Source of the DNA: Patescibacteria group bacterium
GTDB taxonomy: Bacteria; Patescibacteriota; Microgenomatia; Levybacterales; UBA12049
NCBI GenBank assembly: GCA_038063415.1
Contig: JBBTVD010000011.1
Span: 779-64,778 of the forward strand
Direction: 5' to 3'
Length of the DNA stretch: 64,000 nt
A program made the translations under genes and the position numbers. Below are positions 11,233 to 49,853 of the stretch, one piece after another. The notes beneath the pieces were generated by a model. It was given only the letters and a program-made list of their open reading frames with translations, had not been told where the DNA came from and did not search any database. Position 1 is the stretch's first letter. Every line of letters starts with the position of its first letter.

Positions 11233-11291
11233 GTCATTCCTGCGTAGGCAGGAATCCAGAGATCTAGATTCCCACTTTCGTGGGAATGACA
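11233..11291. repeat. Hairpin-pair repeat element, family A, copy 1 (intergenic)
   Basis: gtcattcctgcgtaggcaggaatcca + 8-bp spacer + gattcccactttcgtgggaatgaca. Two inverted hairpin units form terminal inverted repeats. The spurious ORFs 11135..11329 and 11076..11267 read through it. Confidence 0.8.
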
Positions 11292-11311
11292 GAATGGACG
11301 AAAAAGGCTTA

Positions 11312-12646
11312 TCACCAATTCAAACTTAATTGTGGAGAAAGCTTTTTTTTCAACTGCTTTTCTTCTTCTTCGTTCCAAATAGAGACTTTACCATACTCCC
11401 CATCGTACCCAGGAACAATAGCAATATTTCCTTCCCTCACTTTCTTTACTCCTGCTGATACCTGAGGTCCCGCAATATGTGCGATGTCTGCAATAGGTGC
11501 CTTCAGAAGGATATAAAACTCTGACTGCAACTCATGACAAAGCCGTATAAACATATTCTTTACCTTTTGACTAGCCACAGTCGAATGCATGGCCTCAGCA
11601 ATGATCTCGTTAAGAGGGATAAGCTTTACATAAGGAGGCTGCTTCTGCTGTGTATCGGTATGCCATTTGAGTCCTTGTGGATTAATCTTCTGTGTAACTC
11701 TGGTAAGAAGTGAGGGATCAGCAAGTTCTTGTACTCGATACAAAACTCCTTCAGTCATTCTCCGTTTACAGACAGGACAGATATTTCCATTCGCTCTGAT
11801 CTCTTCTGGTCCTTGTGCAACTTTACAGTTGCGGTGTCCTGAGAAATGGTACTTCCCTTCCTCAGGATAAAACTCAACCGTATAGGCAATGGTATTTGGC
11901 GTATCGACAGAGAAATGCATAATTGCCTTACGTACGTCGTCATACGAAAGCTTCTCAAGATCCATAATCGTTGCTTCCCTTCCCATCTTGGGAGCGCTAT
12001 GCGCATCAGAAAAAGAAAGAATCGTCCGAGTCATCAATTCCTTTACCTGCCAGTTCATGTCAGGATCGCTTGAAAGTCCCGTCTCAATGCCGTAAATATG
12101 CGGTGTTAACTCTTCAAAAGCTTGACGGAGCGATTCATAGCCAGATGCACTCCCGTAGATACCAAAGTGTGGCGTCCAGACGTGACAAGGGATCAGAAGG
12201 CATCGTTCGTCAATCGAAAGAATAAGCTCAAGCAGTTGTTTTGACCATAGACCAATAATTGGCCTTCCGTCAGCAGACAAATTGCAACCATGTTTAAGAA
12301 GAGCTGCGGTAATCTTTTCTGCAACCTGCATGCTCGGAGCAAAGACTAAATTATGGATTCTTCTCAGTTTGTCGTTTTGTTTGTAGATGTTTGAAATTTC
12401 TGTTGAAAAGAGAAAGCGAATCTTTTGATGTGGAGATACTTCTTTCTTTAATCGATACAAGCCCTCATCTGCTTCATCAAGTTGTCCCTGGATCTCTTTG
12501 AACCACAGCGGATGGGTAAAATCACAAACGGTCAGTATGTCCAATCCTTTTTGGGTGGCAACTTCGGCCATTACGGGAAGTGTCATTTGTGGAGAAACAG
12601 CACGGGAGTATTTGGAATGGAGATGCAAATCAGTCACATACTGCAT
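11312..12646 (-). CDS. PHP-domain nuclease, EndoQ-like (N-terminal PHP domain plus C-terminal Cys4 zinc finger)
   Basis: DLHLHSKYSRAVS PHP metal-binding N-terminus and a C-terminal CPVCKRRMTEGVLYRV-type zinc ribbon, 444 aa. The architecture matches endonuclease Q. Family assignment is from memory of EndoQ and was not searched. Confidence 0.6.
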   Translation of the reverse strand: MQYVTDLHLHSKYSRAVSPQMTLPVMAEVATQKGLDILTVCDFTHPLWFKEIQGQLDEADEGLYRLKKEVSPHQKIRFLFSTEISNIYKQNDKLRRIHNLVFAPSMQVAEKITAALLKHGCNLSADGRPIIGLWSKQLLELILSIDERCLLIPCHVWTPHFGIYGSASGYESLRQAFEELTPHIYGIETGLSSDPDMNWQVKELMTRTILSFSDAHSAPKMGREATIMDLEKLSYDDVRKAIMHFSVDTPNTIAYTVEFYPEEGKYHFSGHRNCKVAQGPEEIRANGNICPVCKRRMTEGVLYRVQELADPSLLTRVTQKINPQGLKWHTDTQQKQPPYVKLIPLNEIIAEAMHSTVASQKVKNMFIRLCHELQSEFYILLKAPIADIAHIAGPQVSAGVKKVREGNIAIVPGYDGEYGKVSIWNEEEEKQLKKKLSPQLSLNW

Positions 12647-12787
12647 GGGATTTATTGTAACATAGACAAAGAAAAAACAGTAAACCTTGTCGCAGCTATT
12701 ACGTCATGCTGGCTTGTCCAGCATCAGTATCTCAATCAAGATTCTGGATGCGCTCCGCTTGTCGCTTACCAGAATGACGGATCTATG

Positions 12788-14647
12788 CTACTCACTTTTC
12801 CCTTGTAATTTATACATTGCAATCAATTCTTTTACACTAGTCGCATCCTCTGCTTTTTTATCTTTGTCCCGAAAGGTAATCAGACGTGGGAACCTGAGTG
12901 CATAACCAGCTTCTTTCACCACTTTGGCTTCCTCCCCTTCTTGGACTTCTTCCTCATTCATCCCTGCCGTATGCATGGGGCTTCTGGTAATCTCATCAGC
13001 CAATACCTCAATAACGATTTTAGGCTTCACCCAGACGCTTGGGGTAATAAGTGACTCCACACGAGCAGGCTTATGCTCAAGTTCTAGCCCTTTTGTCTTT
13101 TCAGCAATACTTCGCCATTCATCATCGCTCAGTCCCGTCCCAATCCGTGAAACCGTCACAAAAGCATCTTTTTCCTCATCATACAGACCAACGAGCAGTG
13201 CCCCCGCCCCAAATGAAGCTCGTTTCCCTTTGCCATAAATGTATCCTAAGATCACGCAATCTATGGTATCGGTCAGATCACCAGCCGAATGTCTTTTGAG
13301 TTTTACCCAGTTAAAATTACGCCCTCCAGCCTCATACAATGAATCAGGCCGTTTGATAACAACTCCTTCAAGGCCTTTGGAAATCGAATCATCAAGGAGG
13401 AGCTGCAGCTCTTCGGGTTCTTTTAAGACCTTTCCAGGAGAAGGAATGAGCGTCTCACTGCCATCAATAATCCGCTCTAGCGCTTCCATTCGCTCCATAA
13501 GTGGCGTATCAATAAGTGACTTCCCATCCGCATACAGGATGTCAAAGACAAATGCCCGCAGAGGTAATTCCTTGGCTACTGCATCAATGTTATGTTTGCG
13601 ACGGCGTTTGGTTGTCTCTTGAAATGGAAGAAACTCTTCAGAGGCCGGATTGTACGCGAGTGCTTCAGAATCAAGAATTGCCGTTTTGGCTTTCACTTGC
13701 CTCCGCGTCCCCGCAATAAGCTCAGGGAACATATGCGTCATATCTTCAAGATTACGAGAGAACATGGAAACCTTCTCCCCATCTTTATGGATCTGTACCC
13801 GAAAGCCATCGTATTTCGGTGTCGCCTGTACCCCTCTAAGCACCTTTTCTCCGTTATCTGTCATCCTCGACTTGATCGGGGATCCATCCTTCTGGATTCC
13901 CGCTTTCGCGGGAATGACAATTGTTGACATCTTCTCAAAAACCTTAACAGGATTGGGCAGACGTTCACAAAGTTCAGACCGAATGGGGCGACCCACGGTA
14001 ACCGTTAGCTTTTGTACCGCCTCAAGTCCTTGATCCATTAATGTCTTGCCAATCAGTCCCAAATCTGAAGTCTCATTGTATGCTTTCTCAAGTAACTTTC
14101 GTTTACTTCGATCCCCCAGAATTGCAAGACTCACTGCATCAAGAATGGTGGGATCGCCAATTCCAAGACGTGCTTTACCAAGCACAATTCGCACAAGATG
14201 CTTTACAGAAGAGCTATCAAGTTTTTTTAGTAGTTCTGAGAAGAGTGTTCGCTTCTTCTCGACAGTCCCCTCGCCAGAAATATGCGCAAGATCCGTTAAC
14301 AGAGCAAAAACTTCTCCGACGGTAAGCTTGCCTCTTCCTTCTTCACCCTTTCCCCGTAACTGTTTCGCAACCTTCCCCATATCTCCCATTTGTTGATACA
14401 CCTCCCACACTGCTTCTTTGGTTGAATCAAATGCTTGCGCAAGAGCTGCCGAGACAGTTTTGTCTGCCATACCAAATTCAACCGGAGCATAAAAAGGAGC
14501 TACTCTCCCCTGAGAGAGGTACATAACCTTGTCAATTTCGTCAGAAGATACTTGCTTAAAAAGCTCTGACAAAATATCGATTAATGCTAATCGAGACGAG
14601 GTCTCTTCAAGTTTGTCAAAATAAGCTGCGAGTTCTGAAAAAGTCAT
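12788..14647 (-). CDS. ATP-dependent DNA ligase
   Basis: Adenylation motif I KYDGFRVQIH (KxDG), a downstream OB-fold region, 619 aa. Carries an in-frame family-A repeat insertion (VIPAKAGIQKDGSPIKSRMTDNG). Confidence 0.9.
   Translation of the reverse strand: MTFSELAAYFDKLEETSSRLALIDILSELFKQVSSDEIDKVMYLSQGRVAPFYAPVEFGMADKTVSAALAQAFDSTKEAVWEVYQQMGDMGKVAKQLRGKGEEGRGKLTVGEVFALLTDLAHISGEGTVEKKRTLFSELLKKLDSSSVKHLVRIVLGKARLGIGDPTILDAVSLAILGDRSKRKLLEKAYNETSDLGLIGKTLMDQGLEAVQKLTVTVGRPIRSELCERLPNPVKVFEKMSTIVIPAKAGIQKDGSPIKSRMTDNGEKVLRGVQATPKYDGFRVQIHKDGEKVSMFSRNLEDMTHMFPELIAGTRRQVKAKTAILDSEALAYNPASEEFLPFQETTKRRRKHNIDAVAKELPLRAFVFDILYADGKSLIDTPLMERMEALERIIDGSETLIPSPGKVLKEPEELQLLLDDSISKGLEGVVIKRPDSLYEAGGRNFNWVKLKRHSAGDLTDTIDCVILGYIYGKGKRASFGAGALLVGLYDEEKDAFVTVSRIGTGLSDDEWRSIAEKTKGLELEHKPARVESLITPSVWVKPKIVIEVLADEITRSPMHTAGMNEEEVQEGEEAKVVKEAGYALRFPRLITFRDKDKKAEDATSVKELIAMYKLQGKSE
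13860..13919. repeat. Family A repeat, copy 2, inside the ligase CDS in frame
   Basis: Degenerate unit 1 (gtcatcctcgacttgatcggggatcca) plus unit 2 gattcccgctttcgcgggaatgaca at 13895-13919. Translated as VIPAKAGIQ in the ligase. Confidence 0.75.
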
Positions 14648-15768: not shown

Positions 15769-16041
15769 ATGCCAACCCAAAAAGCAATCGCACAAGAGAA
15801 ACTACACTTAGAAATTCTCAAGCAAATGATTACGCTTGCTACCAGTGGCTTTGGACTAGTAGCCGCGCTTGCCTGGAATAACGTCATTCAGGAATTTATG
15901 AAGGTCTATGTGAACAGATGGCTTCCACAAGGTGGGAGTGTTGTATCGCTTCTCTTCTATGCCGTTCTCGTAACTGTCTTTGCGGTGGTTGTTACCTATC
16001 AATTAACCAAACTTGCTGAACTTTCAGAGCGGAAGAAGTAA
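15769..16041 (+). CDS. Small membrane protein (90 aa, 2 transmembrane helices)
   Basis: Internal Met of ORF 15679..16041. Two clear hydrophobic helices. The ORF's upstream part is implausible. Confidence 0.45.
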   Translation: MPTQKAIAQEKLHLEILKQMITLATSGFGLVAALAWNNVIQEFMKVYVNRWLPQGGSVVSLLFYAVLVTVFAVVVTYQLTKLAELSERKK

Positions 16042-16968
16042 TGTACGCATCACTTGAGGAATCTCTTCTGTCAGATCTGAAGCATTAAAATAATACCCAA
16101 CCCGCTCAAACAAAGCTTCTCCTGCCTTCTTATTGAAGTAACTTCCAGCAGTTGCAGCCAGATACAACTCATTTTTACAGGCAAGAGCAGCGACAAGTCC
16201 AGCCAAAACATCCCCTGTCCCTCCTTTGGTCATACCGGCATTCCCTCCAGAGATCTCAACCCACTGTTCTGGAGAACATACGATATCCTTCTCCCCTTTG
16301 AGGAGAATGGTACAGTTATACTTTTTAGCTACCTGCTTTATAGTGTCATGCTGAACTTGTTTCAGCATCTTTTTATCCTTTGTTTGAAGATTCCGAAACG
16401 AGTTCGGAATGACAGGAGAAAACACTCTCCCAAACTCTTGATGATGGGGCGTCAGAATCACATTCCCGTTGAGTGGAAGCAACCATTCTGGCTCAAGCAT
16501 CTGCAGGGCTCCAGCATCAATGATCCATTTTTTCTTAGGATAGGTTGCAAGCAGATACTTCGTCAGATAGTACGTCTGCATACCTTCGTCCTCTACGAGA
16601 AGAATCTCCTCCAATTTACCATTTACCATTTGCCATTTGCCATTTGCATGTTCTGTCCGAACCATCCCTGGACCAATAAGCACGGCGTCAGCTTCCTCAA
16701 TATACGCATCAATATCTTCCTGTCTGACGATAATGCCATTTCGAAACTCTTTTTTGAGCGACTCAACCAGCAGGTTGTTCTCCGCAACCGAAGAATAAAA
16801 GACCATATCAACAATCTTTGAAGCAATTTGCAATGCCCACAGAGAAGCTGCATGAAAAAGTTGGGAACCTCCAATAATCATCAGTTTTCCATTCTGTCCT
16901 TTGTGAGAACCTGCAGGAGGAACGTAGATATCTTTGAGTAATTCAGGATCAAATTGCTGCATAGTCAT
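16024..16968 (-). CDS. nnrD: ADP-dependent NAD(P)H-hydrate dehydratase (YjeF C-terminal / carbohydrate-kinase-like)
   Basis: GKLMIIGGS near the N-terminus, LTPHHQEF (LTPHxGEF motif), and GGTGDVLAG near the C-terminus. Carries an in-frame family-A repeat insertion directly after the HHQEFGR motif. Confidence 0.8.
   Translation of the reverse strand: MTMQQFDPELLKDIYVPPAGSHKGQNGKLMIIGGSQLFHAASLWALQIASKIVDMVFYSSVAENNLLVESLKKEFRNGIIVRQEDIDAYIEEADAVLIGPGMVRTEHANGKWQMVNGKLEEILLVEDEGMQTYYLTKYLLATYPKKKWIIDAGALQMLEPEWLLPLNGNVILTPHHQEFGRVFSPVIPNSFRNLQTKDKKMLKQVQHDTIKQVAKKYNCTILLKGEKDIVCSPEQWVEISGGNAGMTKGGTGDVLAGLVAALACKNELYLAATAGSYFNKKAGEALFERVGYYFNASDLTEEIPQVMRTLLLPL
16345..16414. repeat. Family A repeat, copy 3 (variant units), in frame inside nnrD
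   Basis: Unit 1' gtcatgctgaacttgtttcagcatc (hairpin) + spacer + unit 2' gattccgaaacgagttcggaatgaca. Translated as VIPNSFRNLQTKDKKMLKQVQHDT. Confidence 0.75.
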
Positions 16969-18836: not shown

Positions 18837-19775
18837 TCAACATTGGCAAGAGCTACAGAAAAACGTTCCCCGCCCTCCGAGTACACATCTTTGAATTATT
18901 GTGCCACAAAGAGGGCATGCTTGTCCATCTTTTTTATACACAAGAAAATGTTTCTGATAATTGCCCTGCGTACCAAGCACACTGATATAGTTATTTGCCG
19001 ATGCTCCCCCCAGCGCAATACTTTTGGTGAGCAATGCCTCGATTGCGACAAAGAGCTTCTGTTGTTCAGATGGGGATAAAGAGCTTGCCGAACGAGTTGG
19101 GAGAATCCCCGCCTGGAAGAGTGCATCATTGGCATAAATATTCCCCACACCGGCAATCCTTCGCTGATCCATAAGAACGGTCTTTATAGGCGATCTGGTA
19201 GCCTTCAGAATGGTTTTAAAATCCTTAAGTGTCAAATCTCGCAACGGCTCCTTCCCAAGAGACTTAAAAAAAGGCAAAAAGGCTACTTCTTCTGTAGGAA
19301 CAACCTGAATCCAGCCAAACTGCCGGATGTCACGATAGTACAACACCGCTCCCCGATCCAAATGAAAAATGACATGTGTGTACTTGTCTGGAAGATCTTC
19401 CAAAGAAAACTGAGAAAAGGATGTAGCATTTTTTTCGTTCGCATCCTGAACTCCTTGATTATTTTTTAAATATGATTGTGTGAATTGCGGAACAGAAAAA
19501 TGTTGCAATCCAATCTCAGATTCTTTATCTTTTGCTGGTTTGTACAATAGCTGCCCCGTCATCTTCACATGAATGGCCAAACTCATATTATTTGAAAAAT
19601 CAATCACCAACCCTTTCCCAAACTTTCTGGCACCACTGACCTTAGCTCCGGTAATTAACTTCGGATCTCCACGAAACTGTTTGGGGAGAGTAATCACAAT
19701 ATCCAAGATCGTGTGTCCTACCAGATGTTTCTTCAGACCAAGACGAATTGTTTCTACTTCAGGAAGTTCAGTCAT
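18837..19775 (-). CDS. Fpg/Nei-family DNA glycosylase (formamidopyrimidine-DNA glycosylase-like) with a ~50-aa insertion
   Basis: Starts MTELPEVE (P2 and E3 catalytic residues). Has an H2TH region and a C-terminal zinc finger CPLCG...CSSCQ. The called start at 19835 is probably spurious. Confidence 0.85.
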   Translation of the reverse strand: MTELPEVETIRLGLKKHLVGHTILDIVITLPKQFRGDPKLITGAKVSGARKFGKGLVIDFSNNMSLAIHVKMTGQLLYKPAKDKESEIGLQHFSVPQFTQSYLKNNQGVQDANEKNATSFSQFSLEDLPDKYTHVIFHLDRGAVLYYRDIRQFGWIQVVPTEEVAFLPFFKSLGKEPLRDLTLKDFKTILKATRSPIKTVLMDQRRIAGVGNIYANDALFQAGILPTRSASSLSPSEQQKLFVAIEALLTKSIALGGASANNYISVLGTQGNYQKHFLVYKKDGQACPLCGTIIQRCVLGGRGTFFCSSCQC

Positions 19776-19782
19776 GAGGAGA

Positions 19783-20193: not shown

Positions 20194-21374
20194 ACTTTTT
20201 TTTGCTTTACCTTGGCAGACACAAACGCTTGTATTTGCTTCATAAAGCGTTCTTTTGAAAACTTCTCTGCTTGTTTTTTACACTCCACTTGCATTTTGTC
20301 ATGCTGAACTTGTTTGCGCATCTCAAACCTTTTAATTGCCCGAGACAACCCTTCAGCAGTAAGCTTGTCAAAAAAGATTCCCGTCTTCCCATCGATAACG
20401 GTTTCTTTTACACCGCCCCCCCCGTAGGCAATCACGGGTATCCCACAAGCCATTGCCTCAACTGGTGTAATCCCAAAATCCTCATCGGCAGCAGCAAAAA
20501 GGAATGCCTTGGCACCCTGCATTAGACGCAATTTTTCTTCTTCGTTTACTTCGCCAACAAACGCAACCGTCTTCCCCGCCAACGACTGTAACTCTTCTCC
20601 ATAGCCAGCAAAGGATTTACCAAAAACTTTCAATGGCACACCAAGATCGGTACACGCCTGGACAATCAGATCAAAATGCTTCGCACGAGCCAAGCGACCA
20701 CCAGCAAGATAGTATGCTTTTGACTTGTCATTCCGGGCTTGACCCGGAATCCATTCCATTCTAGATTCCCGCCTTCGCGGGAATGACAATAAAGAAATGT
20801 CCACTGGAGGGTAAATCACGGTCGAATCCCTTCGATAAAACTTCCTAATTCTCCCCGAAACCTCTTGTGAATTGGCAATAAACCAGTCAACCTGTTGTGC
20901 TATCCGAAAATCACTCAGTCGCAGGAAATGATTTGCTATCGTAGCAAACGCTGCTACGAGCTTATGCTTCTTCCAGCTACGTGCGGTTGCATACCCATAG
21001 AGATATCGAGGTGGTGTATGACAGTAGCAAATATGCACTTCCTTCCCCTTACGAATCGCGTTTGGAAAAAAGGCGCCGGTTGCTGAGACAATAACCACAT
21101 CATACGAAGAGAAATCAAATTGCCCAAAAACAGAAGCTGAAATGACTCGAAAAGGGCTTAGGAGTTTGTAGTTAAATGGCACATGTTGGAACCAAGTTGT
21201 CTTAATCTTCCACCCTGAGAAACGCTTTCTATGTGGGCCAAGGAACTTGGGTAAATAGACAGATGTATACACATCCGCATCTGGATAGATCTCGTGCAAA
21301 GCCTCAAGCACCCGTTCTGCACCCCCATACTCTTTGATGTAATCATGGACTAACGCAACCTTTATCTTTTTCAT
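20190..21374 (-). CDS. Glycosyltransferase family 4 (GT-B fold)
   Basis: C-terminal EDFGITPVEAMACGIPVIA (the E-x7-E region of GT4). Carries two family-A repeat insertions (SFPRRRESRMEWIPGQARNDKSKA, and a C-terminal MRKQVQHDKMQ). Confidence 0.8.
   Translation of the reverse strand: MKKIKVALVHDYIKEYGGAERVLEALHEIYPDADVYTSVYLPKFLGPHRKRFSGWKIKTTWFQHVPFNYKLLSPFRVISASVFGQFDFSSYDVVIVSATGAFFPNAIRKGKEVHICYCHTPPRYLYGYATARSWKKHKLVAAFATIANHFLRLSDFRIAQQVDWFIANSQEVSGRIRKFYRRDSTVIYPPVDISLLSFPRRRESRMEWIPGQARNDKSKAYYLAGGRLARAKHFDLIVQACTDLGVPLKVFGKSFAGYGEELQSLAGKTVAFVGEVNEEEKLRLMQGAKAFLFAAADEDFGITPVEAMACGIPVIAYGGGGVKETVIDGKTGIFFDKLTAEGLSRAIKRFEMRKQVQHDKMQVECKKQAEKFSKERFMKQIQAFVSAKVKQKKV
20296..20322. repeat. 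Family A repeat, solo degenerate unit 1', inside the glycosyltransferase CDS
   Basis: gtcatgctgaacttgtttgcgcatc. Same unit as at 16345 and 48997 with two substitutions that break the hairpin. Translated as MRKQVQHDK. Confidence 0.6.
20727..20788. repeat. Family A repeat, copy 5, in frame inside the glycosyltransferase CDS
   Basis: gtcattccgggcttgacccggaatcca + spacer + gattcccgccttcgcgggaatgaca. Translated as RRRESRMEWIPGQARND. Confidence 0.8.
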
Positions 21375-36934: not shown

Positions 36935-37006
36935 TGCGTCCGGCTGGAATCGAACCAACGACATGGTGTGTATAAGACACCTGTTCTACCGCTGAACTAC
37001 GGACGC
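36935..37006 (-). tRNA. tRNA with anticodon loop CUUAUAC, i.e. anticodon UAU (Ile, decodes AUA)
   Basis: Manual fold: acceptor GCGTCCG/CGGACGC (perfect), D-arm GTTC-AGCGGTA-GAAC, anticodon arm GGTGT-CTTATAC-ACACC (perfect), T-arm GTTGG-TTCGATT-CCAGC. 72 nt, followed by CC. Confidence 0.7.
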
Positions 37007-37050
37007 ATAATGAGGCTCATTGTAACAAACGGTTCTCAAAAAAACAAATG

Positions 37051-39426: not shown

Positions 39427-39428
39427 AG

Positions 39429-41743: not shown

Positions 41744-41751
41744 AAAAAAAC

Positions 41752-41830
41752 TCCTCATGTTGCATCAACTTCCGAGGAGTCCACAAAAAAAGGACTTCTG
41801 CTCGGAAGACTTTTTGCCCAAAATAAATAG
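41752..41830 (-). terminator. Tandem hairpin plus T-run terminators after pduO (end of the nrdR-nrdJ-pduO operon)
   Basis: On the minus strand: GTCTTCCGAGCAGAAGTCC + TTTTTTT (the lower-confidence call: at most a 4-bp CTTC/GAAG stem with a 6-nt loop), then ACTCCTC-N17-GAGGAGT (perfect 7-bp stem) + TTTTTTT immediately before the next gene. Confidence 0.45.
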
Positions 41831-41892
41831 GCATGGGGATCTGGCTTTACAGTTGCGGCACAGCTCAGGAATGTCACCTGATTCACCCATTT

Positions 41893-42444
41893 TTATCTTT
41901 TTTTCCACGTTATCTCTGGTTGTTTTTCTTGCTGATTCACCAATCGTGCCATCGTAAAGAGGAGATCAGACAAACGATTCACATATTTTATAATTGCAGG
42001 ATCGATCTCTTCTTCTTGCATTAGTGATACAAGCTGCCTTTCAGCACGTCGTGTTATGCTCCGAGAGATGTGTAATGACGCACCGCTGAGACTTCCACCT
42101 GGGAGAATAAACTGCTTCAATTCTGGCAATGTGTCGGTCATCACATCAATGAGCTTCTCAAAAGCAGCTGGCCGAGTTTCAAGCCCAACGACGGGCAAAG
42201 GATATGGCGTAGCGAGAGCCGAACCAATAGCAAACAGATCATGCTGGATCTGTTCTAGTTCTCTTCTCACATCGTTTGCCATCTCCCATGTGCTATCTCC
42301 CATGTGTGCCAAAACCATTCCAAGAGAACTGTTGAGTTCGTCTATCGTCCCATAGGTTTCGACACGTTTGTCTGATTTGAGAACGCGCTTTCCATCAAAC
42401 AGAGATGTCTTCCCCTTGTCTCCCGTACGAGTATAAATAGCCAT
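41893..42444 (-). CDS. pduO: PduO-type ATP:cob(I)alamin adenosyltransferase
   Basis: MAIYTRTGDKGKTSL N-terminal signature. 183 aa. Confidence 0.9.
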   Translation of the reverse strand: MAIYTRTGDKGKTSLFDGKRVLKSDKRVETYGTIDELNSSLGMVLAHMGDSTWEMANDVRRELEQIQHDLFAIGSALATPYPLPVVGLETRPAAFEKLIDVMTDTLPELKQFILPGGSLSGASLHISRSITRRAERQLVSLMQEEEIDPAIIKYVNRLSDLLFTMARLVNQQEKQPEITWKKR

Positions 42445-42475
42445 TTAGACTACCACACCTTTCTCTCTTTTATTT

Positions 42476-42552
42476 GTCATTCCCGCGTAGGCGGGAATCC
42501 AGTAATGAGAAGCGTTCACAGATAGATTCCTGGTTTGCGACCAGGAATGACT
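42476..42552. repeat. Family A repeat, copy 6 (intergenic, within the nrdJ-pduO operon)
   Basis: gtcattcccgcgtaggcgggaatcca + 23-bp spacer + gattcctggtttgcgaccaggaatgact. The spurious ORF 42445..42675 ends in its translation (WIPAYAGMT). Confidence 0.8.
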
Positions 42553-42808
42553 ACTCGTGGGAACGCGAACAGTTGCACCAGCAATCAATGGAAGTAAGGC
42601 AGCGATGACTAAAGAAAGAAATAATACGATGGCGATGGCAATATTTTCTCTGATGAGTTTTTTGATGTTAGGCATAAAAAAATCCTTCTCACCGAGAAGG
42701 ACTATGCCATGATAGCTTTTCCTGCTCGGGCAATATCATCATGTACAGTTTTCTGACTTTACAGTAGCGGCACTGTGGTTGATTTACACAACACTTGCCT
42801 GAACATGA

Positions 42809-45268
42809 CTAACACTCACTATAGCCACAGCTATAGCATTTCTTACAACCTTCTTCATAGGCCAGAGTACTGGATCCACAGTCTGGACAAATATCAAAGA
42901 GACTTGTGGACGAGGTTTGCATAGCTACACCCGTATCAGGAATTGCCAATTGGTTTTGTGCAAGAGAAGCTTCAGTAATAGGCGCATCGGCTGCAATAGC
43001 TGCACCATTCGCGTGTAAACCTTCTCCATTAGTTACCGCATTGATAACCTCTTTATCTTGCACCGTCCCATTTACTTTAAAGTTAGAATGTTTGGACAAG
43101 ACTTTTGCAATAGCATCAGGAAGTGAGCGCACACGATTCTCGCCAAAGCCAATGCTCCGTGAACCGCCAATACCAGTAAGCTCTGAAACAATCTCACGAA
43201 CTCGCTCACGAGCAGGAACCGCACTATGAATACGGAGGACAAAAGAAATCATACGACCAAGGGCATCAGCCAGTGCCATCAGATCTGAACCACTTTTGCC
43301 ATGATTGATGAATACCTCAAACATATTCCCCTTTTCGTCTTCGTTAATCGTGACATACATCTTGCCGCTTGGGCTATCTGATTTATAGGTAACACCGGAA
43401 AGCATCATAGGACGAGGCATACGAGGAGTTACAGGGATAGCAGGCTCTTGAACACTTGGAGCCTCTTGTACTGAGGTTATCAAAGCATCTTCTGCTTTCT
43501 TTTTCTCTTTTTGTGGGTCAATTCTTTCAAGTACTCCTTGTCGAGAACCATCTCGCATATAGGTTACTCCTTTGAGACCCATATCATAGGCTGCCATATA
43601 CAGGGTTTTCACATCGTCAACTGTGTGAGTATTTGGCGCATTGACTGTTTTTGAAATTGAAGAATCAATGTATTCCTGCGCGACTGCCTGGACACGAGTA
43701 TGCTCAAGCGGTGTCAAATCATTTGCGCCAACGAAATAGGCTGGCCTCTCTGCCGTTGGGTTTTCTTTAAGCCATGCCTCATACAAGGGATGATACATAA
43801 TCTCTTCTCCACCTTTCCAAATACGTCTAAACGTGAATTCATACACTGGTTCAACACCAGAACTGACACCTGAAACGAGCGATGTTGTCCCTGTTGGAGC
43901 AATCGTCAAAAGTACTGCGTTACGAATTCCCTGTTCTTCAATCATTTCCCGAATTTTCTTTGGCAATGCTTTGATGTGGTAGCCTTGCATGTATTTTTCT
44001 TTATCAAATTTAGGAAAAATGCCTTTTTCTTTCGCAAGTTCTGATGAAGCAATGTAAGCATTGTCCCGAAGAGTTTTAAAGATTTTTTCAATAACTGGTT
44101 GCGCTTCATCAGCCCCATATTGCAAATGCATTTTAATTAACGCGTCCGCAAGCCCCATAATACCAAGGCCTGTTCTTCGAATATCTTTGGCGACTTCTTC
44201 GTTTTCCTTAAAAAAATAATGCGTTTGATCAATAACATTATCAAGCATACGCATCGCAACTTTAACATCCTGACTAAAGCTGTCGAAGTCAAACGTCCCG
44301 GCTTTGCCTGGTTCGTAACCTTTAACGTAGGCAGACAAATTCATCGCTCCAAGGTTACAGACAGCCCAACCACCAAGAGGCTGTTCCCCACAAGGATTGG
44401 TTGCAATTAATGTCTCAAAATACCATGTATTACTGCGAGCGTTACTTCGACCCAAGAAATGCAATCCTGGCTCTGCTGATCTCCAGGCAGCAGTACAAAT
44501 AAGATCCCACAATTCTCGTGCTTTAACGGTTTTGTGGACTTTGATCTTTCCACCTTTTGCTTTCCATTTATCGAGTTCTCCATCCCACTCTTCATCATAA
44601 CGAGAATCTGAAATATCTGGATAGACCAGCTCCCATTCTTTATCTGCTTTTACGGCCTCCATAAACTCGTCAGAAATACAGACCGAAAGGTTGGCACCAT
44701 TAATCTTGGTGAGGTCTTGCTTCACGGTGATAAATTCTTCAATATCCGGATGCCAATCCCAAAGCATAAGCATTGTTGCGCCACGGCGAGAACCTCCTTG
44801 TTGGACAATGTCATGGGTTGCGACTGAAAAAAGCGTTGCCCAATTAACAGGACCTGAGGAAGTGCCATTTACTTTCCTTACCCGAGCCCCTTTTGGACGA
44901 AGAGAAGAGAGGTTAAGACCAACACCACCAGAGCGAGCTTGAATCTCAACAAGCTGACCGAGTGACTCCAAAATACCGTGGCGTGAATCTTTGGGTGATG
45001 GAATCACAAAACAGTTAAAATACGTGACCTGGTAGCCTGTTCCGGCACCAGACAGGATACGACCTGCCGGAACAAACTTGAAGTCTTCCATCACCCGATA
45101 GAATTCTTTGACCCATTTACGACGCTCGCCTTTCTTTTCGTTCTCGGCAATCCCCCGTGCTACCCGCTGCCACATTTCAACAGGTGTTGGCTCCGTGGGT
45201 TTCCCTTCTTCATCTTTCAATGAATATCGATCCAAAAATACTTTTTGTCTTATACCATCTAATTTCAT
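42809..45268 (-). CDS. nrdJ: Adenosylcobalamin-dependent ribonucleotide reductase (class II)
   Basis: NPCGEQPL...CNLGAMNL active-site Cys/Glu region, 819 aa, C-terminal CxxC...CxxC zinc ribbon (CPDCG...CKKCYSCG). Confidence 0.9.
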   Translation of the reverse strand: MKLDGIRQKVFLDRYSLKDEEGKPTEPTPVEMWQRVARGIAENEKKGERRKWVKEFYRVMEDFKFVPAGRILSGAGTGYQVTYFNCFVIPSPKDSRHGILESLGQLVEIQARSGGVGLNLSSLRPKGARVRKVNGTSSGPVNWATLFSVATHDIVQQGGSRRGATMLMLWDWHPDIEEFITVKQDLTKINGANLSVCISDEFMEAVKADKEWELVYPDISDSRYDEEWDGELDKWKAKGGKIKVHKTVKARELWDLICTAAWRSAEPGLHFLGRSNARSNTWYFETLIATNPCGEQPLGGWAVCNLGAMNLSAYVKGYEPGKAGTFDFDSFSQDVKVAMRMLDNVIDQTHYFFKENEEVAKDIRRTGLGIMGLADALIKMHLQYGADEAQPVIEKIFKTLRDNAYIASSELAKEKGIFPKFDKEKYMQGYHIKALPKKIREMIEEQGIRNAVLLTIAPTGTTSLVSGVSSGVEPVYEFTFRRIWKGGEEIMYHPLYEAWLKENPTAERPAYFVGANDLTPLEHTRVQAVAQEYIDSSISKTVNAPNTHTVDDVKTLYMAAYDMGLKGVTYMRDGSRQGVLERIDPQKEKKKAEDALITSVQEAPSVQEPAIPVTPRMPRPMMLSGVTYKSDSPSGKMYVTINEDEKGNMFEVFINHGKSGSDLMALADALGRMISFVLRIHSAVPARERVREIVSELTGIGGSRSIGFGENRVRSLPDAIAKVLSKHSNFKVNGTVQDKEVINAVTNGEGLHANGAAIAADAPITEASLAQNQLAIPDTGVAMQTSSTSLFDICPDCGSSTLAYEEGCKKCYSCGYSEC

Positions 45269-47047: not shown

Positions 47048-48403
47048 CTATTGTTGGTTCTTCTGTTCCTCTGATGGTACTGGAGCAGGAGGGGCAGCTG
47101 GTGTCTCAGTAGTTTGTGACGCTGGTGGAGCTGGCGGGGCAAAAGAGCCAGAAAGTGGAGCTGGTGAGACACTTGGTGCTGTAGATGGGCTAGCTGAAGG
47201 GGGGGTCGATGATTGACCAAGTGAACCGAACATATCGGTTAATGACGTTGACGCGGAAGCGGAAGCGACTGGAGCAGCTGAAGCCGGAGTTTCTGCTACT
47301 GGAGCAGGTACCTCTGGTGCTGGACTCACGGGCTGAGAAGGAGCTGGCGTAGGTGCTTGGCCAACCTGCTGGGCAACCATTATGGCTTCTTCAATTAATC
47401 TATTTGCGTAACCATACTCGTTGTCATACCATGCTATTACTTTAACCATATTGCCCCCTACTACCTGGGTCAATGAAAGGTCTACAATGCTTGAGTGAGA
47501 ATTACCAATAATATCACTTGATACAAGTGGATCTGTCGTAACGGCAAGCACTCCTTTGTATAAAGGATTTTCTGCTTCTTTGGTCAACACATCATTTACC
47601 TCTTCTTTGGTTACGTCTTTTTTGAGAAGGAAAGTAAAGTCTGACAAAGAACCGACAGGAACCGGGACACGAAGCGATAATCCACCAAAGATTCCTTTGA
47701 GCGCAGGCAGTGATTCAGCAGCAGCAACCGTTGCACCAGTTGAAGTCGGAATAATACTGAGAGCTGCAGCTCGAGAACGGCGGTAGTCTTTGTGACCACT
47801 ATCCTGGAGTCGCTGATCAGAGGTATAGCCATGAACGGTAGTCATCATTGCTTTATCAATACCAAAATGATCCTGAAGTATCTTTGCAACCGGGGTAATA
47901 CAGTTGGTGGTACAAGATGCGTTACTAATAATCTTCTCTCCTGCATAATCGGCATCATTTACCGAGATAACATAGGTAGGGATCCCTTCTCCTTTTGCAG
48001 GAGCTGATAGGACGACTGCCTTTGCGCCAGCAGTAATATGTGCTTGCAACTTATCAGCAGTCGTAAAGACACCGGTTGATTCAATAACAACATCGACATT
48101 AAGGTCTTTCCAGGGAAGTTGTGACGGATCCTTCTGGGAGTAAACAGGAATCTCCTTCCCATCAATCACCAATGAACCAAGCAGTGCCGTATTTGCAGGA
48201 TCAGTACTTGGCTTTACACTAACATCAAAAGGCAATAAGCCATACACACTATCGTATTTGAGGAGGTACATCCATCCGTTAATATCGGTTGAGGAACCTG
48301 CGTTTATCGCCGCAATTTCAATATCCTGGCTGTGCCATTGCGTGATAACTCGATGAGCTACTCGCCCGATTCTTCCATACCCATTAATCGCGACACGAAT
48401 CAT
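47048..48403 (-). CDS. gap: Glyceraldehyde-3-phosphate dehydrogenase with a ~110-aa Pro/Ala/Ser-rich C-terminal tail
   Basis: MIRVAINGYGRIGR NAD-binding N-terminus and the catalytic ASCTTNC motif. The start was set at MIRVAIN (48403) because the ORF's upstream extension to 48673 is implausible. The tail after the conserved C-terminus is low complexity (PTPAPSQPVSPAPEVPAP...). Confidence 0.85.
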   Translation of the reverse strand: MIRVAINGYGRIGRVAHRVITQWHSQDIEIAAINAGSSTDINGWMYLLKYDSVYGLLPFDVSVKPSTDPANTALLGSLVIDGKEIPVYSQKDPSQLPWKDLNVDVVIESTGVFTTADKLQAHITAGAKAVVLSAPAKGEGIPTYVISVNDADYAGEKIISNASCTTNCITPVAKILQDHFGIDKAMMTTVHGYTSDQRLQDSGHKDYRRSRAAALSIIPTSTGATVAAAESLPALKGIFGGLSLRVPVPVGSLSDFTFLLKKDVTKEEVNDVLTKEAENPLYKGVLAVTTDPLVSSDIIGNSHSSIVDLSLTQVVGGNMVKVIAWYDNEYGYANRLIEEAIMVAQQVGQAPTPAPSQPVSPAPEVPAPVAETPASAAPVASASASTSLTDMFGSLGQSSTPPSASPSTAPSVSPAPLSGSFAPPAPPASQTTETPAAPPAPVPSEEQKNQQ

Positions 48404-48453
48404 ATATTGAGTATATACTCCTCTTTTTTTTACTGCAAGGGGTAAATTACTAT

Positions 48454-48463
48454 CTCCTGACGT
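48454..48463. promoter_or_regulatory. Perfect 10-bp palindrome CTGACGTCAG between divergent gap and gdh
   Basis: Seen directly in the sequence. A possible operator in a divergent promoter region, with no assignment. Confidence 0.25.
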
Positions 48464-48470
48464 CAGAAAA

Positions 48471-49853
48471 ATGTCTAGCATGTCTCCTAGGCAGGCAGTA
48501 CAATCCAAATCTATGGTACATAACCCTTGGCTGGCTGCCAAACAACAACTGAAAAAAGCTGGAGAACGGCTCGGTATTGACCCATTACTACTAGCTAACC
48601 TGTCTGAACCAGAACGAATTATTGAAGTATCGCTTCCTTTTGTTCGTGATACCAATGACATTCTCACGGTCACTGGCTATCGTATCCAACATAGCAGCAT
48701 CTTAGGGCCGTATAAAGGTGGACTGCGATATCATCCGCAGGTGTCGACGGATGAAGTTAAAGCACTCGCCTTTCTCATGACCATGAAGAATGCCCTCCTT
48801 GGCATCCCGTTTGGCGGCGGTAAGGGGGGCATTACGATTGATCCCAAATCACTTTCCGAAGCAGAGCTTGGACGACTAACGAGGCTCTTTACGAGGAGAC
48901 TTGGTCCCACTATTGGACCTTATTTTGATGTACCAGCTCCTGACGTCAATACGAATCCTAAGATCATGAGCTGGATTGCTGATGAGTTTAAAAAATGTCA
49001 TGCTGAACTCGTTTCAGCATCTTCTTTAGGTTATAAAAAGATCCCGAAACAAGTTCGGGATGACACGTATTTGTCAGCCGTAGTAACAGGGAAACCGATT
49101 ACCGCCGGTGGTTCTGAGGGAAGGACTGAAGCCACAGGACTTGGTGGAAGTTATGCCCTATTGGAATACCTAAAACTCACCGGCAAAAAACCCAAAGGGA
49201 TGACTGTCGGGATACAAGGTTTTGGTAATGTAGGCAGGTTTATTGCGACCTTTCTTCAGCAGGCAGGCATGAAAATTGTCGCGATAGCGGATTCCAAAGG
49301 AGGAATCTATATCCCTGAAGGTATTGAAGATCTTGAGGCTGTACAAAAATGCAAAGAAGCAACGGGGCTTCTTGCCGGCTGCTATTGTGTCGGCTCAGTA
49401 TGCGATATTGCAAATAAGAAAATGCTCAAAGGCAAAGATATCTCTCCTGCCAACATTCTCACACTCCCGGTAGATATTGTCATCCCAGCAGCCCTTGAGA
49501 ATGCAATTACTCCAGAGATTGCAAAAAAGATGCAAGCATCTGTTGTACTTGAAATGGCCAATGCACCAACGACAGCTGAAGCAAACGACATTCTTAGCCA
49601 ACGAGGAGTTACGGTGATTCCAGATATCCTCGCAAATGCTGGAGGGGTCGTTGTCAGCTCCTTTGAATGGGAACAAAATATTAAGCAACAAAAGTGGACA
49701 AAGCAAGTTGTTTTTACTAAGTTACACAAGAAAATGAAGAACACCGTAAAAGAACTCGTAGCAATCAGTAGCACCTATAAAACGCCACTTCGAGAAGCAG
49801 CATATATGCTGGCTCTTACTCGGCTTGCGAAAGCATGGAGAAAACAACACTAA
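48471..49853 (+). CDS. gdhA: Glutamate dehydrogenase (Glu/Leu/Phe/Val dehydrogenase family)
   Basis: GGGKGG catalytic glycine-rich region, a Rossmann GFGNVG, 460 aa. Contains an in-frame family-A repeat insertion (KKCHAELVSASSLGYKKIPKQVRDDT). Confidence 0.9.
   Translation: MSSMSPRQAVQSKSMVHNPWLAAKQQLKKAGERLGIDPLLLANLSEPERIIEVSLPFVRDTNDILTVTGYRIQHSSILGPYKGGLRYHPQVSTDEVKALAFLMTMKNALLGIPFGGGKGGITIDPKSLSEAELGRLTRLFTRRLGPTIGPYFDVPAPDVNTNPKIMSWIADEFKKCHAELVSASSLGYKKIPKQVRDDTYLSAVVTGKPITAGGSEGRTEATGLGGSYALLEYLKLTGKKPKGMTVGIQGFGNVGRFIATFLQQAGMKIVAIADSKGGIYIPEGIEDLEAVQKCKEATGLLAGCYCVGSVCDIANKKMLKGKDISPANILTLPVDIVIPAALENAITPEIAKKMQASVVLEMANAPTTAEANDILSQRGVTVIPDILANAGGVVVSSFEWEQNIKQQKWTKQVVFTKLHKKMKNTVKELVAISSTYKTPLREAAYMLALTRLAKAWRKQH
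48997..49064. repeat. Family A repeat, copy 7 (variant units), in frame inside gdh
   Basis: gtcatgctgaactcgtttcagcatc + spacer + gatcccgaaacaagttcgggatgaca. Both units are hairpins. Confidence 0.75.

What the first reader, a model, noticed from the sequence alone, without database searches (positions are those of the whole stretch)
11233..49064. Family of hairpin-pair palindromic elements (family A) scattered through the window
At least seven copies share one architecture. A ~26-bp hairpin unit beginning gtcattcc (for example gtcattcccgcgtaggcgggaatcca) is followed by an 8-23 bp spacer and an inverted second hairpin unit ending ggaatgaca (for example gattcccgctttcgcgggaatgaca). Each unit is an internal stem-loop, and the two units together form terminal inverted repeats, as in a MITE. 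Copies are at 11233-11291, 13860-13919, 16345-16414, 20727-20788, 42476-42552 and 48997-49064, plus a solo degenerate unit at 20296-20322. A subfamily has atgctgaac...gttcagcat and atcccgaac...gttcgggat stems. Loops and stems show compensatory changes between copies (cgc-gtag-gcg, cgc-tttc-gcg, ggg-cttga-ccc, tgg-tttgcga-cca), arguing for selection on the structure rather than the sequence. In a genome this small, an expanding family of structured repeats is unexpected. From memory, the hairpin unit also resembles repeats whose translations (IPAKAGIQ, RGND-type peptides) turn up in hypothetical proteins from other bacterial genomes, but I have not verified any identity.
Basis: seen in the sequence. 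Interest (0 to 1): 0.75.

Follow-up and report, generated by a model that had tools for sequence, protein, structure and literature searches.

The report
Known hairpin-repeat family inside CPR genes
The window holds seven paired-hairpin repeats of a family already described across bacteria (CGTC-tagged REPs, also called dRS3/NTS/SRM; the 2013 paper equates them with Rickettsia RPE-4/6), here in a groundwater Patescibacterium where most copies are read through in frame inside ordinary genes.

Summary
Each unit is (C/T)GTC, then a 7-9 bp stem starting AT, a 4-5 nt loop, and a C-led tail. That is 12 strict hits against 0.8 expected by chance.

It is not new. It meets the published definition of CGTC-tagged REPs in head-to-head dimers (Di Nocera 2013). 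Some units differ from the Neisseria NTS consensus at one position, and three match the published SRM regex (Chenal 2025). The exact architecture occurs in at least 120 stretches of species-representative genomes from many phyla.

A fifth lies in a 76-aa ORF. Ligase orthologs show a shared insertion hotspot with filled, decayed and empty states.

There is no target-site duplication, transposase or RAYT. The window's own small GIY-YIG gene is not the SsnA type: 0 of 80 homolog loci are motif-flanked, against 4 of 6 positive controls.

Verdict: a new member of a known kind, in a new host lineage. The mobilising enzyme is unidentified.

The parts
11232..11291 (.). HH dimer 1. Units at 11233-11256(+) ATTCCTGC-GTAG-GCAGGAAT and 11267-11290(-) ATTCCCAC-GAAA-GTGGGAAT. 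Intergenic: 20 nt downstream of the stop of ORF 11312-12646(-) and 97 nt upstream of the start of ORF 10703-11134(-).
   Evidence: z = -4.5, two hairpins; E about 1e-6 for each unit
12701..12780 (.). Left unit 12703-12725(+) CGTC-ATGCTGG-CTTGT-CCAGCAT-C. Right unit 12738-12780(-) CGTC-ATTCTGG-(21-nt loop)-CCAGAAT-C. Intergenic, between the ligase stop (12788) and the start of the 444-aa ORF (12646).
   Evidence: (E = 5e-4 and 5e-3)
13859..13919 (.). HH dimer 3, inside the ATP-dependent DNA ligase ORF 12788-14647(-). Translated as VIPAKAGIQKDGSPIKSRMT in the linker between the DNA-binding and adenylation domains, just upstream of the KYDG motif.
16344..16414 (.). HH dimer 4 (stems ATGCTGAA and ATTCCGAA, 5-nt loops), inside the Carb_kinase / NAD(P)HX dehydratase ORF 16024-16968(-). 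Translated as VIPNSFRNLQTKDKKMLKQVQHDT.
20296..20324 (+). Degenerate solo unit (GTCATGCTGAAC TTGT TTGCGCATC), inside the GT4 ORF 20190-21374(-). Translated as MRKQVQHDK. It no longer folds.
   Evidence: z = +0.45; 19.2 bits, E = 0.019
20726..20788 (.). HH dimer 5, inside the GT4 glycosyltransferase ORF 20190-21374(-), between the two Rossmann-like halves (Glyco_transf_4 ends at aa 194, Glycos_transf_1 starts at aa 213). Translated as SFPRRRESRMEWIPGQARND.
   Evidence: (SRM regex hit)
42475..42552 (.). HH dimer 6 (8-bp stem with a GTAG loop; 9-bp stem with a 5-nt loop). It lies inside a called 76-aa ORF 42445-42675(-) (…HSWSQTRN…WIPAYAGMT…). It is downstream of the AdoCbl-II aptamer 42738-42809(-) and a terminator-like stem 42703-42681(-), and directly upstream of the adenosyltransferase gene 41893-42444(-).
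   Evidence: SRM regex hit; an independent contig ends inside it
48996..49065 (.). HH dimer 7 (stems ATGCTGAA and ATCCCGAA), inside the glutamate dehydrogenase ORF 48471-49853(+). Translated as CHAELVSASSLGYKKIPKQVRDD, between the dimerisation domain (ends at aa 175) and the NAD-binding domain (starts at aa 213).

Best explanation
These are CGTC-tagged repetitive palindromes (REPs), arranged as head-to-head dimers with the tags on the outside. They belong to the same superfamily as Neisseria dRS3/NTS and the pan-bacterial Ssn-related motif (SRM). By the 2013 paper's own assignment, that superfamily also includes Rickettsia RPE-4 and RPE-6. The host is a groundwater Patescibacteria (CPR) genome.

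Shown here:
- The anatomy matches the published definition.
- The stems are maintained through compensatory change.
- The family is present, patchily, in many phyla and in several CPR lineages.
- Copies are gained, lost or decayed at orthologous sites.
- Four or five of the seven dimers are translated in frame. They add about 20-24 residues in inter-domain linkers or loops of otherwise intact enzymes.

Inferred:
- They are non-autonomous selfish elements. They act as single-stranded DNA hairpins that a trans-acting nuclease recognises through the GTC tag and the C just after the stem. The only enzyme shown experimentally to do this is the SsnA-type GIY-YIG ssDNA nuclease.
- A short dimer looks like the gene-less form of the unit-ssnA-unit arrangement.
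- In a gene-dense genome, the copies that survive are mostly those that landed in frame at tolerant linkers. Four of the six reading frames of a unit have no stop codon.
- The cognate enzyme is not in this window.
For: Anatomy:
- Thirteen of 14 clean units carry a TGTC or CGTC tag and one carries AGTC (42551). All have GTC, a stem opening with AT, and C right after the stem. Stems are 7-9 bp. Loops are 4-5 nt, apart from one unit with a 21-nt loop. All seven dimers have their tags on the outside. This is the definition in PMC3733652.
- Three units match the published SRM regex, against 0.17 expected. Unit 13892-13919(-) differs from the NTS consensus CGTCATTCCCGCGMAVGCGGGAATCYRG at one position.
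- The invariant GTC and the C after the stem are the positions that SsnA mutagenesis found critical for cleavage and for binding.

Structure.

Distribution:
- Ten viral contigs.
- Thirty-five units in 16 of 88 CPR loci.

In-frame insertion:
- Pfam domain gaps and alignments to solved homologs show extra residues at the element positions.
- Among 120 ligase orthologs, 71 have a 2-5 aa linker. At least eight carry element-derived peptides at that linker, in two different frames, and others have intermediate low-complexity linkers.
- DNA confirms dimers in L216 and L217, a half copy in L218 and a decayed remnant in L215.

No transposon hallmarks: no target-site duplication and no transposase.

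Autonomous-form analogy: SsnA-type genes in N. gonorrhoeae, A. lipoferum, Rhizobium and Shinella are flanked on both sides within 15-130 bp. In Rhizobium and Shinella the nearest units face outward.
Against: - No SsnA-type gene is in the window. None is in the 130 loci fetched by the repeat pattern either.
- The only GIY-YIG gene present (32255-32509) is UPF0213-like. It shares 31% identity with the gonococcal SsnA-type protein. None of 80 homolog loci has an SRM within 1 kb.
- So the enzyme link rests on analogy with other phyla. Movement itself was not observed.
- Polymorphic occupancy could reflect decay of old insertions rather than ongoing mobility.
- The stems of the orthologous ligase dimers are far more conserved than the surrounding coding DNA: 1 of 32 positions differ, against 33% divergence in the flanks, P = 4e-5. 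That hints at function or homogenisation rather than pure selfishness.
- Assignment to CGTC sub-families rests on stem and loop lengths only, because the figure with the consensus sequences is not held.
Confidence: 0.8

Rival explanations
1. The elements are host-beneficial rather than merely tolerated. The hairpins would be kept by selection. They could act as RNA-level signals (mRNA stabilisers, attenuators or terminators). They could also act as ssDNA sites that let a nuclease modulate uptake or recombination of incoming DNA, as shown for NTS and SsnA in Neisseria.
For: - The stems of the orthologous ligase dimers differ at 1 of 32 positions. The flanking coding DNA is 33% diverged, the loops differ at 3 of 9, and the spacers differ.
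- Both clearly intergenic dimers lie just downstream of ORF stops. The 2013 paper reads that placement as evidence of RNA function.
- One dimer sits in a riboswitch-controlled leader.
- Ten of the 15 units cluster in 11.2-20.8 kb, a stretch that holds DNA ligase, a RecF/SMC-like ATPase, Fpg and a NUDIX hydrolase. This echoes the published enrichment near repair genes.
Against: - Four dimers sit inside coding regions of unrelated enzymes, where a terminator would be harmful.
- Most orthologs of the ligase lack the element, and the closest one has only a decayed half. It is therefore dispensable.
- The family is patchy among CPR loci.
- Stem conservation could equally come from gene conversion, or from sequence-specific recognition by the mobilising enzyme.
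Confidence: 0.12
2. The window's own 84-aa GIY-YIG protein (32255-32509) is the cognate nuclease. It would be a divergent CPR version of Ssn that acts in trans on these hairpins without being flanked by them.
For: - It is a single-domain GIY-YIG of the right size (Pfam E = 9e-18). The catalytic-type residues align: Y7, Y17, R27, H31 and E64 are invariant in 31 homologs.
- It is weakly homologous to SsnA-type proteins. Pairwise E is 2e-6 against the gonococcal protein, and some CPR homologs reach 1e-13 against the A. lipoferum protein.
- It co-occurs with the repeats in this window.
Against: - None of 80 homolog loci has an SRM within 1 kb, and there is no enrichment near the gene. Four of six SsnA-type controls are flanked on both sides, and the paper reports 71%.
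- The gene sits in conserved synteny next to a tRNA-Met. It is common in CPR loci that have no units at all.
- Its closest solved relatives are UPF0213 proteins. In the plasmid collection its relatives occur in taxa such as Pseudomonas, Legionella and E. coli.
- It does not reach the paper's E < 1e-10 criterion.
Confidence: 0.08
3. The elements are REPINs: REP doublets mobilised by a RAYT (an IS200/IS605-type tyrosine transposase).
For: The architecture of two inverted palindromic units with a short spacer and no target-site duplication is the same as a REPIN.
Against: - The tag is CGTC or TGTC, not GTAG.
- No Y1 transposase is in the window.
- The 2013 survey found no RAYT flanked by CGTC units in any species.
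Confidence: 0.04
4. The elements are classical MITEs derived from an insertion sequence and moved by a DDE transposase.
For: The copies are short, have inverted termini (TGTCAT...ATGACA) and are dispersed.
Against: - There are no target-site duplications. The best flank matches are 2-4 nt, and inconsistent, even when the boundaries are allowed to shift by 4 nt.
- The inverted termini are the hairpin units themselves, and the two units of a dimer usually have different stems.
- No parent IS or transposase is in the window or in the fetched loci.
- Single units occur alone.
Confidence: 0.02

Closest known systems
CGTC-tagged REPs, families CGTC-1 to CGTC-4 (Di Nocera, De Gregorio and Rocco 2013, PMC3733652)
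   Same: - An unpaired CGTC or TGTC tag.
- An 8-9 bp stem starting with AT.
- A 4-5 nt loop and a short tail close to CCA.
- Mostly head-to-head dimers.
- Heterodimers with different stems or loops.
- No linked transposase.
- Occasional intragenic dimers encoding 20-30 aa, including in DNA-repair genes.
   Different: - The host phylum (Patescibacteria/CPR) is not among the five phyla listed for CGTC repeats.
- The intragenic fraction in this window is 4-5 of 7. The upper bound in 136 dimers from other genomes is 14% (Fisher P = 0.013 for 4 of 7 and 0.0015 for 5 of 7).
- One unit has a 7-bp stem, and one has a 21-nt loop.
NTS / Ssn-related motif (SRM) and the SsnA GIY-YIG ssDNA nuclease (Chenal et al. 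2025, PMC11893778); dRS3 of Neisseria
   Same: - The unit sequence is nearly identical to the NTS and contains the dRS3 core ATTCCC-N8-GGGAAT.
- Three units match the SRM regex.
- The positions critical for SsnA binding and cleavage are invariant.
- It is predicted to form an ssDNA hairpin.
   Different: - No SsnA-type gene lies next to the repeats or anywhere in the window.
- The subfamilies with ATGCTGAA, ATCCCGAA or ATTCCGAA stems fall outside the published regex.
- That paper does not mention the words intragenic, in-frame or Patescibacteria.
Rickettsia palindromic elements RPE-4 and RPE-6 (equated with CGTC-4 and CGTC-1 in PMC3733652)
   Same: Hairpin repeats inserted in frame into protein-coding genes of a small-genome bacterium. 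They add short peptide segments to proteins that stay intact.
   Different: - I made no direct sequence comparison with RPEs. The link rests on the 2013 paper's statement.
- The host here is a free-living or episymbiotic groundwater CPR bacterium, not an obligate intracellular alphaproteobacterium.
REPINs and RAYTs (GTAG-tagged REP doublets and their tyrosine transposases)
   Same: An inverted doublet of palindromic units with a short spacer and no target-site duplication. Presumed ssDNA hairpin recognition by a trans-acting enzyme.
   Different: The tag differs (CGTC, not GTAG). There is no RAYT. The experimentally linked enzyme class is GIY-YIG rather than HUH/Y1.
QMITE1 and QMITE2 of Coxiella burnetii (PMC5896051) and Correia elements of Neisseria
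   Same: Small, dispersed palindromic elements that can overlap ORFs.
   Different: - QMITE1 is 300-400 bp.
- QMITE2 is 150-190 bp with 7-11 nt direct repeats and a GTAG REP.
- Correia elements, from my own knowledge, are 100-155 bp with a TA duplication.
- The elements here are 60-80 bp with no duplication.

Membership tests
CGTC-tagged REP superfamily | An unpaired CGTC tag (often TGTC) at one end of each unit | tested here: met
   Eleven units have TGTC, two have CGTC (both units of dimer 12701-12780) and one has AGTC (42551).
CGTC-tagged REP superfamily | A stem of 8-9 bp whose first two pairs are A-T and T-A | tested here: met
   Eleven units have 8 bp, one has 9 bp and two have 7 bp. AT opens the stem in all of them.
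CGTC-tagged REP superfamily | A loop of 4-5 nt | tested here: met
   Five units have a 4-nt loop and eight have a 5-nt loop. One exception has a 21-nt loop, at 12738-12780.
CGTC-tagged REP superfamily | A short unpaired tail, mostly CCA | tested here: met
   The tails are CCA (5), CTA (3), CTT (4) and CAG (1). The first C is invariant.
CGTC-tagged REP superfamily | Units organised predominantly as head-to-head dimers (tags outside) | tested here: met
   Seven of seven dimers are HH.
CGTC-tagged REP superfamily | Sequence match to the family consensus sequences (Figure 2 of the paper) | not testable with these tools
   Figures are not held. I assigned sub-families from stem and loop lengths only.
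NTS / SRM motif | A match to the published degenerate SRM search sequence | tested here: inconclusive
   Three of 14 clean units match, against 0.17 expected. The other units share the framework but have stems outside the regex.
NTS / SRM motif | Spatial association with an ssnA (cd10448 GIY-YIG) gene | tested here: not met
   No SsnA-type gene is in the window. The nearest GIY-YIG gene is about 10 kb from any unit and is of another type. The rest of the genome was not available.
NTS / SRM motif | Bound and cleaved as ssDNA by an Ssn nuclease | not testable with these tools
   This needs a biochemical assay.
Ssn nuclease family (for window ORF 32255-32509) | A single-domain GIY-YIG protein of about 90 aa | tested here: met
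   The ORF is 84 aa. PF01541 covers residues 4-75, E = 9e-18.
Ssn nuclease family (for window ORF 32255-32509) | Close homology to Neisseria SsnA (the paper's criterion is E < 1e-10) | tested here: not met
   Identity is 31% and pairwise E is 2e-6 against the gonococcal SsnA-type protein recovered. tblastn with that protein gives no hit to the window at E <= 0.01. I took the gonococcal protein to be the SsnA orthologue because it is the single hit in that genome and has NTS on both sides. Its identity to NMB0047 was not verified.
Ssn nuclease family (for window ORF 32255-32509) | The gene is flanked by SRM repeats (71% of homologs in the paper) | tested here: not met
   None of 80 homolog loci has an SRM within 1 kb. 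In the positive control, four of six SsnA-type loci are flanked on both sides.
Ssn nuclease family (for window ORF 32255-32509) | Assignment to CDD family cd10448 | not testable with these tools
   No CDD search is available. The closest solved structures are UPF0213 proteins 1zg2 and 1ywl.
Rickettsia palindromic elements (RPE-4, RPE-6) | In-frame insertion into protein-coding genes that stay intact | tested here: met
   The ligase, NAD(P)HX dehydratase, GT4 and GDH ORFs stay open, and their Pfam domains are intact on both sides of the element.
Rickettsia palindromic elements (RPE-4, RPE-6) | Sequence similarity to the RPE-4 or RPE-6 consensus | not tested
   No RPE sequence was available. The link rests on the statement in PMC3733652.
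REPIN / RAYT system | A GTAG tag and an associated RAYT gene | tested here: not met
   The tag is CGTC or TGTC. GTAG occurs only as the loop of two units. No Y1 transposase is in the window.
Classical MITE | A target-site duplication and derivation from an IS with the same termini | tested here: not met
   There is no consistent duplication. No IS or transposase was found.

The most novel reading that the evidence does not exclude
In Patescibacteria these hairpin dimers are not just tolerated debris. They would be maintained inside coding sequences by selection on the DNA or RNA hairpin. They could serve as ssDNA recognition sites for a nuclease that governs DNA uptake, recombination or repair. 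That nuclease might be the conserved UPF0213-like GIY-YIG found next to tRNA-Met. A preferred insertion site in the DNA ligase linker would be part of the same system. This would extend the Ssn/NTS system to a divergent enzyme clade and to intragenic targets, in organisms thought to depend on scavenged DNA.
Probability: 0.1. Interest if true: 0.6.

Novelty: new member of a known kind. Interest (0 to 1): 0.3.

Why it matters
The finding turns an apparently odd repeat into a recognisable one, with a testable enzyme partner.

For annotation, it explains the VIPAKAGIQ, SFPRRRES and RGND-type peptides in hypothetical proteins. It also explains length variation in CPR enzymes, and assembly breaks such as the contig that ends inside dimer 6.

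For biology, it shows that CGTC/SRM hairpins reach the streamlined CPR genomes. There a large share sits in frame in enzyme linkers, and the DNA ligase linker is a recurrent site.

If an Ssn-type nuclease is found in these genomes, CPR bacteria would be a natural system for asking two questions: whether such hairpins are selfish DNA, and whether they regulate single-stranded DNA traffic.

Tried and rejected
- Coxiella QMITE1/2. The GC content suggested Coxiella, but the gene content and an exact protein look-up point to a Patescibacteria MAG from Hainich groundwater. The QMITEs are also much larger.
- Literature search for the translated peptides: no paper in the library.
- GIY-YIG genes near 130 repeat-selected loci: none found. 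This is uninformative, because genomes with hundreds of repeats have only one or a few such genes.
- The window's GIY-YIG as the cognate Ssn: rejected as unsupported.
- Supplementary data of the Ssn paper, sought for SsnA sequences: not held. Instead I used a remembered generic GIY-YIG sequence purely as bait against the plasmid collection, and worked only with the real genes it retrieved.
- Decayed copies as the cause of extra residues in Fpg, the 5'-3' exonuclease, Pth and GAPDH: the covariance model finds nothing significant there (the best is 23806-23834 at E = 4.4).
- Rfam: no family matches at the element positions.
- Exact look-up of the GDH protein: not on record, probably because the start codon was called differently.
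- A first attempt to compare stem and loop divergence was mis-registered and was redone.

Full report
OBSERVATION

The listed copies are present as described. I ran a census that asks only for GTC followed directly by a perfect stem of at least 7 bp. It finds 13 sites, 12 of them family units, against 0.80 expected from dinucleotide-preserving shuffles with a maximum of 4. I then aligned 13 units, built a covariance model and ran it unfiltered over all 64 kb. It recovered every unit and added two. One is 12738-12780(-) at E = 0.005, which pairs with the unit at 12703 to make a seventh dimer with canonical CGTC tags and a 21-nt loop. Nothing else in the window scores. The inventory is therefore seven dimers and one decayed solo unit, 15 units in all, lying between 11.2 and 49.1 kb.

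ANATOMY

Each unit has a (C/T)GTC tag, a stem of 7-9 bp that always opens with A-T then T-A, a loop of 4 or 5 nt, and a tail that always starts with C. In all seven dimers the tags face outward. The two units of a dimer nearly always have different stems. Consistent with that, four of the six listed dimers fold as two separate ssDNA hairpins rather than one long one, with z from -4.2 to -5.6. The decayed solo unit does not fold.

Stem pairing is complete (91 of 91 cells), and four of seven pairs change on both sides. Most of these units were found by a search that required pairing, so I also used an unbiased set. This set is 136 dimers fetched from other genomes with a pattern that leaves the inner three stem pairs free. 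They are 97-98% Watson-Crick, against 58-90% expected, with several pair types.

There are no target-site duplications.

ORGANISM AND CONTEXT

An exact protein look-up places the window in a Patescibacteria (CPR) MAG from Hainich groundwater. One independent contig ends inside dimer 6, as expected for a multi-copy repeat.

- ATP-dependent DNA ligase: VIPAKAGIQKDGSPIKSRMT.
- NAD(P)HX dehydratase: VIPNSFRNLQTKDKKMLKQVQHDT.
- GT4 glycosyltransferase: SFPRRRESRMEWIPGQARND, plus the decayed solo unit.
- Glutamate dehydrogenase: CHAELVSASSLGYKKIPKQVRDD.

All three reading frames are used. Alignments to solved homologs show these segments as extra residues at domain boundaries or loops. A fifth dimer lies in a called 76-aa ORF, between an AdoCbl riboswitch with its terminator-like stem and an adenosyltransferase gene. 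The other two are intergenic, just downstream of ORF stops.

WHAT IT IS

A literature search by DNA string led to Chenal et al. 2025. The Neisseria NTS is CGTCATTCCCGCGMAVGCGGGAATCYRG and contains the dRS3 core. The generalised Ssn-related motif (SRM) is found across bacteria. Window unit 13892-13919(-) differs from the NTS consensus at one position, and three units match the published SRM regex (0.17 expected).

Di Nocera et al. 2013 had already defined the class as CGTC-tagged REPs. In their definition the tag is often TGTC, stems are 8-9 bp starting with AT, loops are 4-5 nt, tails are close to CCA, and dimers are mostly head-to-head. They report no dedicated transposase. The class includes Neisseria dRS3 and Rickettsia RPE-4 and RPE-6. 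They also describe intragenic dimers encoding 20-30 aa, notably in replication and repair genes.

Every feature I could test is met (see the membership table). These span Proteobacteria, Bacteroidota, Chloroflexota, Nitrospirota, Acidobacteriota, Planctomycetota, Omnitrophota, Elusimicrobia and four CPR genomes. It also occurs in ten viral contigs.

TURNOVER

The 120 closest ligase orthologs (68-78% identical, lengths 577-636 aa) differ mainly at one linker, between EKM and VHATPKYDG. Seventy-one have 2-5 residues there. At least eight carry recognisable element peptides, in two different frames (VIPAKAGI... and RHSG...GQARMT). Others have intermediate low-complexity linkers.

DNA from syntenic loci shows a range of states:
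- L216 and L217 have full dimers at the linker. L217's has different stems and starts 1 nt off the window's position.
- L218 has a half copy there, plus units at other, non-orthologous sites.
- L215, the closest ortholog, has only a decayed right half.

The covariance model finds 35 units in 16 of 88 CPR loci, 0.056 per kb, against 0.23 per kb in the window. The family is thus patchy, and this genome is comparatively rich in it.

Elsewhere at most 14% of dimers are read through by long ORFs, against 4-5 of 7 here. Fisher P is 0.013 for 4 of 7 and 0.0015 for 5 of 7. The sample is small.

THE ENZYME QUESTION

The window encodes an 84-aa single-domain GIY-YIG protein at 32255-32509. I tested whether it is the Ssn partner, and the evidence is against:
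- Its closest solved relatives are UPF0213 proteins.
- In 80 metagenomic loci encoding its homologs, none has an SRM within 1 kb, and strict units are not enriched near the gene. Instead the gene sits in conserved synteny beside a tRNA-Met.

As a positive control I retrieved SsnA-type genes from annotated records. Four of six (N. gonorrhoeae, A. lipoferum, Rhizobium, Shinella) have motifs within 15-130 bp on both sides. In Rhizobium and Shinella the nearest units point outward, like a dimer with the gene as its spacer.

The two protein types share 31% identity, with E = 2e-6. They hit disjoint taxa in the plasmid collection. No SsnA-type gene, RAYT or other transposase is in the window.

MECHANISM

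Shown:
- The class identity.
- Maintenance of the hairpins.
- Cross-phylum sequence conservation at the positions SsnA needs.
- In-frame tolerance at linkers.
- Polymorphic occupancy.

Inferred:
- The units act as ssDNA hairpins recognised by a trans-acting SsnA-type nuclease encoded elsewhere in the genome or supplied horizontally.
- The short dimers are the gene-less counterparts of the unit-ssnA-unit arrangement.
- Gene-dense CPR genomes retain mostly those insertions that fall in frame in permissive linkers.

How a cut leads to copying is unknown, for this family as a whole.

UNEXPLAINED

Between the window and L216, the ligase-linker dimers differ at 1 of 32 stem positions, while the flanking coding DNA is 33% diverged (P = 4e-5). 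The loops differ at 3 of 9 positions, and the spacers also differ. Selection on the hairpin, gene conversion among copies, or repeated insertion of the same heterodimer would each explain this. One pair cannot decide between them.

VERDICT

This is a real, well-structured repeat family, correctly spotted. It is already known in kind: CGTC REPs, dRS3/NTS/SRM and RPE-4/6, including their intragenic behaviour. The modest novelty is the CPR host, the high in-frame fraction, the ligase-linker hotspot, and the absence of a recognisable partner enzyme nearby.

Noticed in passing
window 32255-32509 (+): An 84-aa single-domain GIY-YIG protein of the UPF0213-like type. Its homologs (mostly 81 aa, 57-75% identical) are common in CPR metagenome contigs and usually sit just downstream of a tRNA-Met gene. 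Its function is unknown, and it is not associated with the hairpin repeats.
   Followed up: yes
window 42738-42809 (-) and 41826-41902 (-): Two AdoCbl-II riboswitch aptamers. The first starts at the stop codon of the class II ribonucleotide reductase gene. It precedes a terminator-like stem, a 76-aa ORF and a PduO-type adenosyltransferase gene. The second overlaps the end of that gene and precedes a 527-aa ORF with no Pfam match (40175-41758).
   Followed up: partly
window 35599-39971: A tRNA-Ile with the unusual anticodon UAU (36933-37006, -). It lies between a tyrosine-recombinase gene (35599-36483), a PNPOx-like gene, and a 791-aa TraG/VirD4-like coupling ATPase (37051-39426; domains taken from the precomputed hits). 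This may be an integrated mobile element.
   Followed up: no
window 18837-19835, 23320-24360, 9845-10489, 47048-48673: Several other enzymes have unexplained extra residues within Pfam domains. In Fpg, 155 aa span a 117-position domain. In the 5'-3' exonuclease, the N domain is split into two stretches. Pth has about 27 extra residues, and GAPDH has gaps and long extensions. The covariance model finds no hairpin units there, so these are not detectably repeat-derived.
   Followed up: partly
window 48471-48673: The longest GDH ORF and the longest GAPDH ORF overlap by about 200 nt on opposite strands. The exact GDH protein is not on record. The true start codons are probably further downstream than the mechanical ORFs suggest.
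   Followed up: no
L131 (contig Hain_H14_02um_R2_218), end of the locus, equivalent to window about 42509: An independent assembly of the same organism breaks inside dimer 6. This is a practical sign that these repeats fragment CPR assemblies.
   Followed up: partly
window 12738-12780; ligase orthologs P0126 and P0132: Some units have greatly expanded loops. The window unit has a 21-nt loop. The two ligase orthologs have extra residues inside the first hairpin's loop (VIPAK-VEDPPRR-AGI and VIPA-RESASGGK-AGI). It looks as if extra sequence can be added at the hairpin tip.
   Followed up: no
L220 (A. lipoferum plasmid AZO_p3), L223 (Rhizobium sp. CIAT894), L224 (Shinella): SsnA-type GIY-YIG genes sit between outward-facing hairpin units 15-31 bp from the gene ends. 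In A. lipoferum the gene, with a head-to-head dimer on each side, is wedged between sufB and sufC. This looks like an insertion of a unit-gene-unit cassette into an operon.
   Followed up: partly
L219 (NZ_CP119142.1) and NZ_CP119140.1: Two 2.17-Mb Neisseria gonorrhoeae records are filed as plasmids in the plasmid collection. They are evidently chromosomes.
   Followed up: no
window 30960-31168: Two divergently oriented tRNA-Met (CAU) genes lie 64 nt apart. The second is short (70 nt) and scores lower (43 bits).
   Followed up: no
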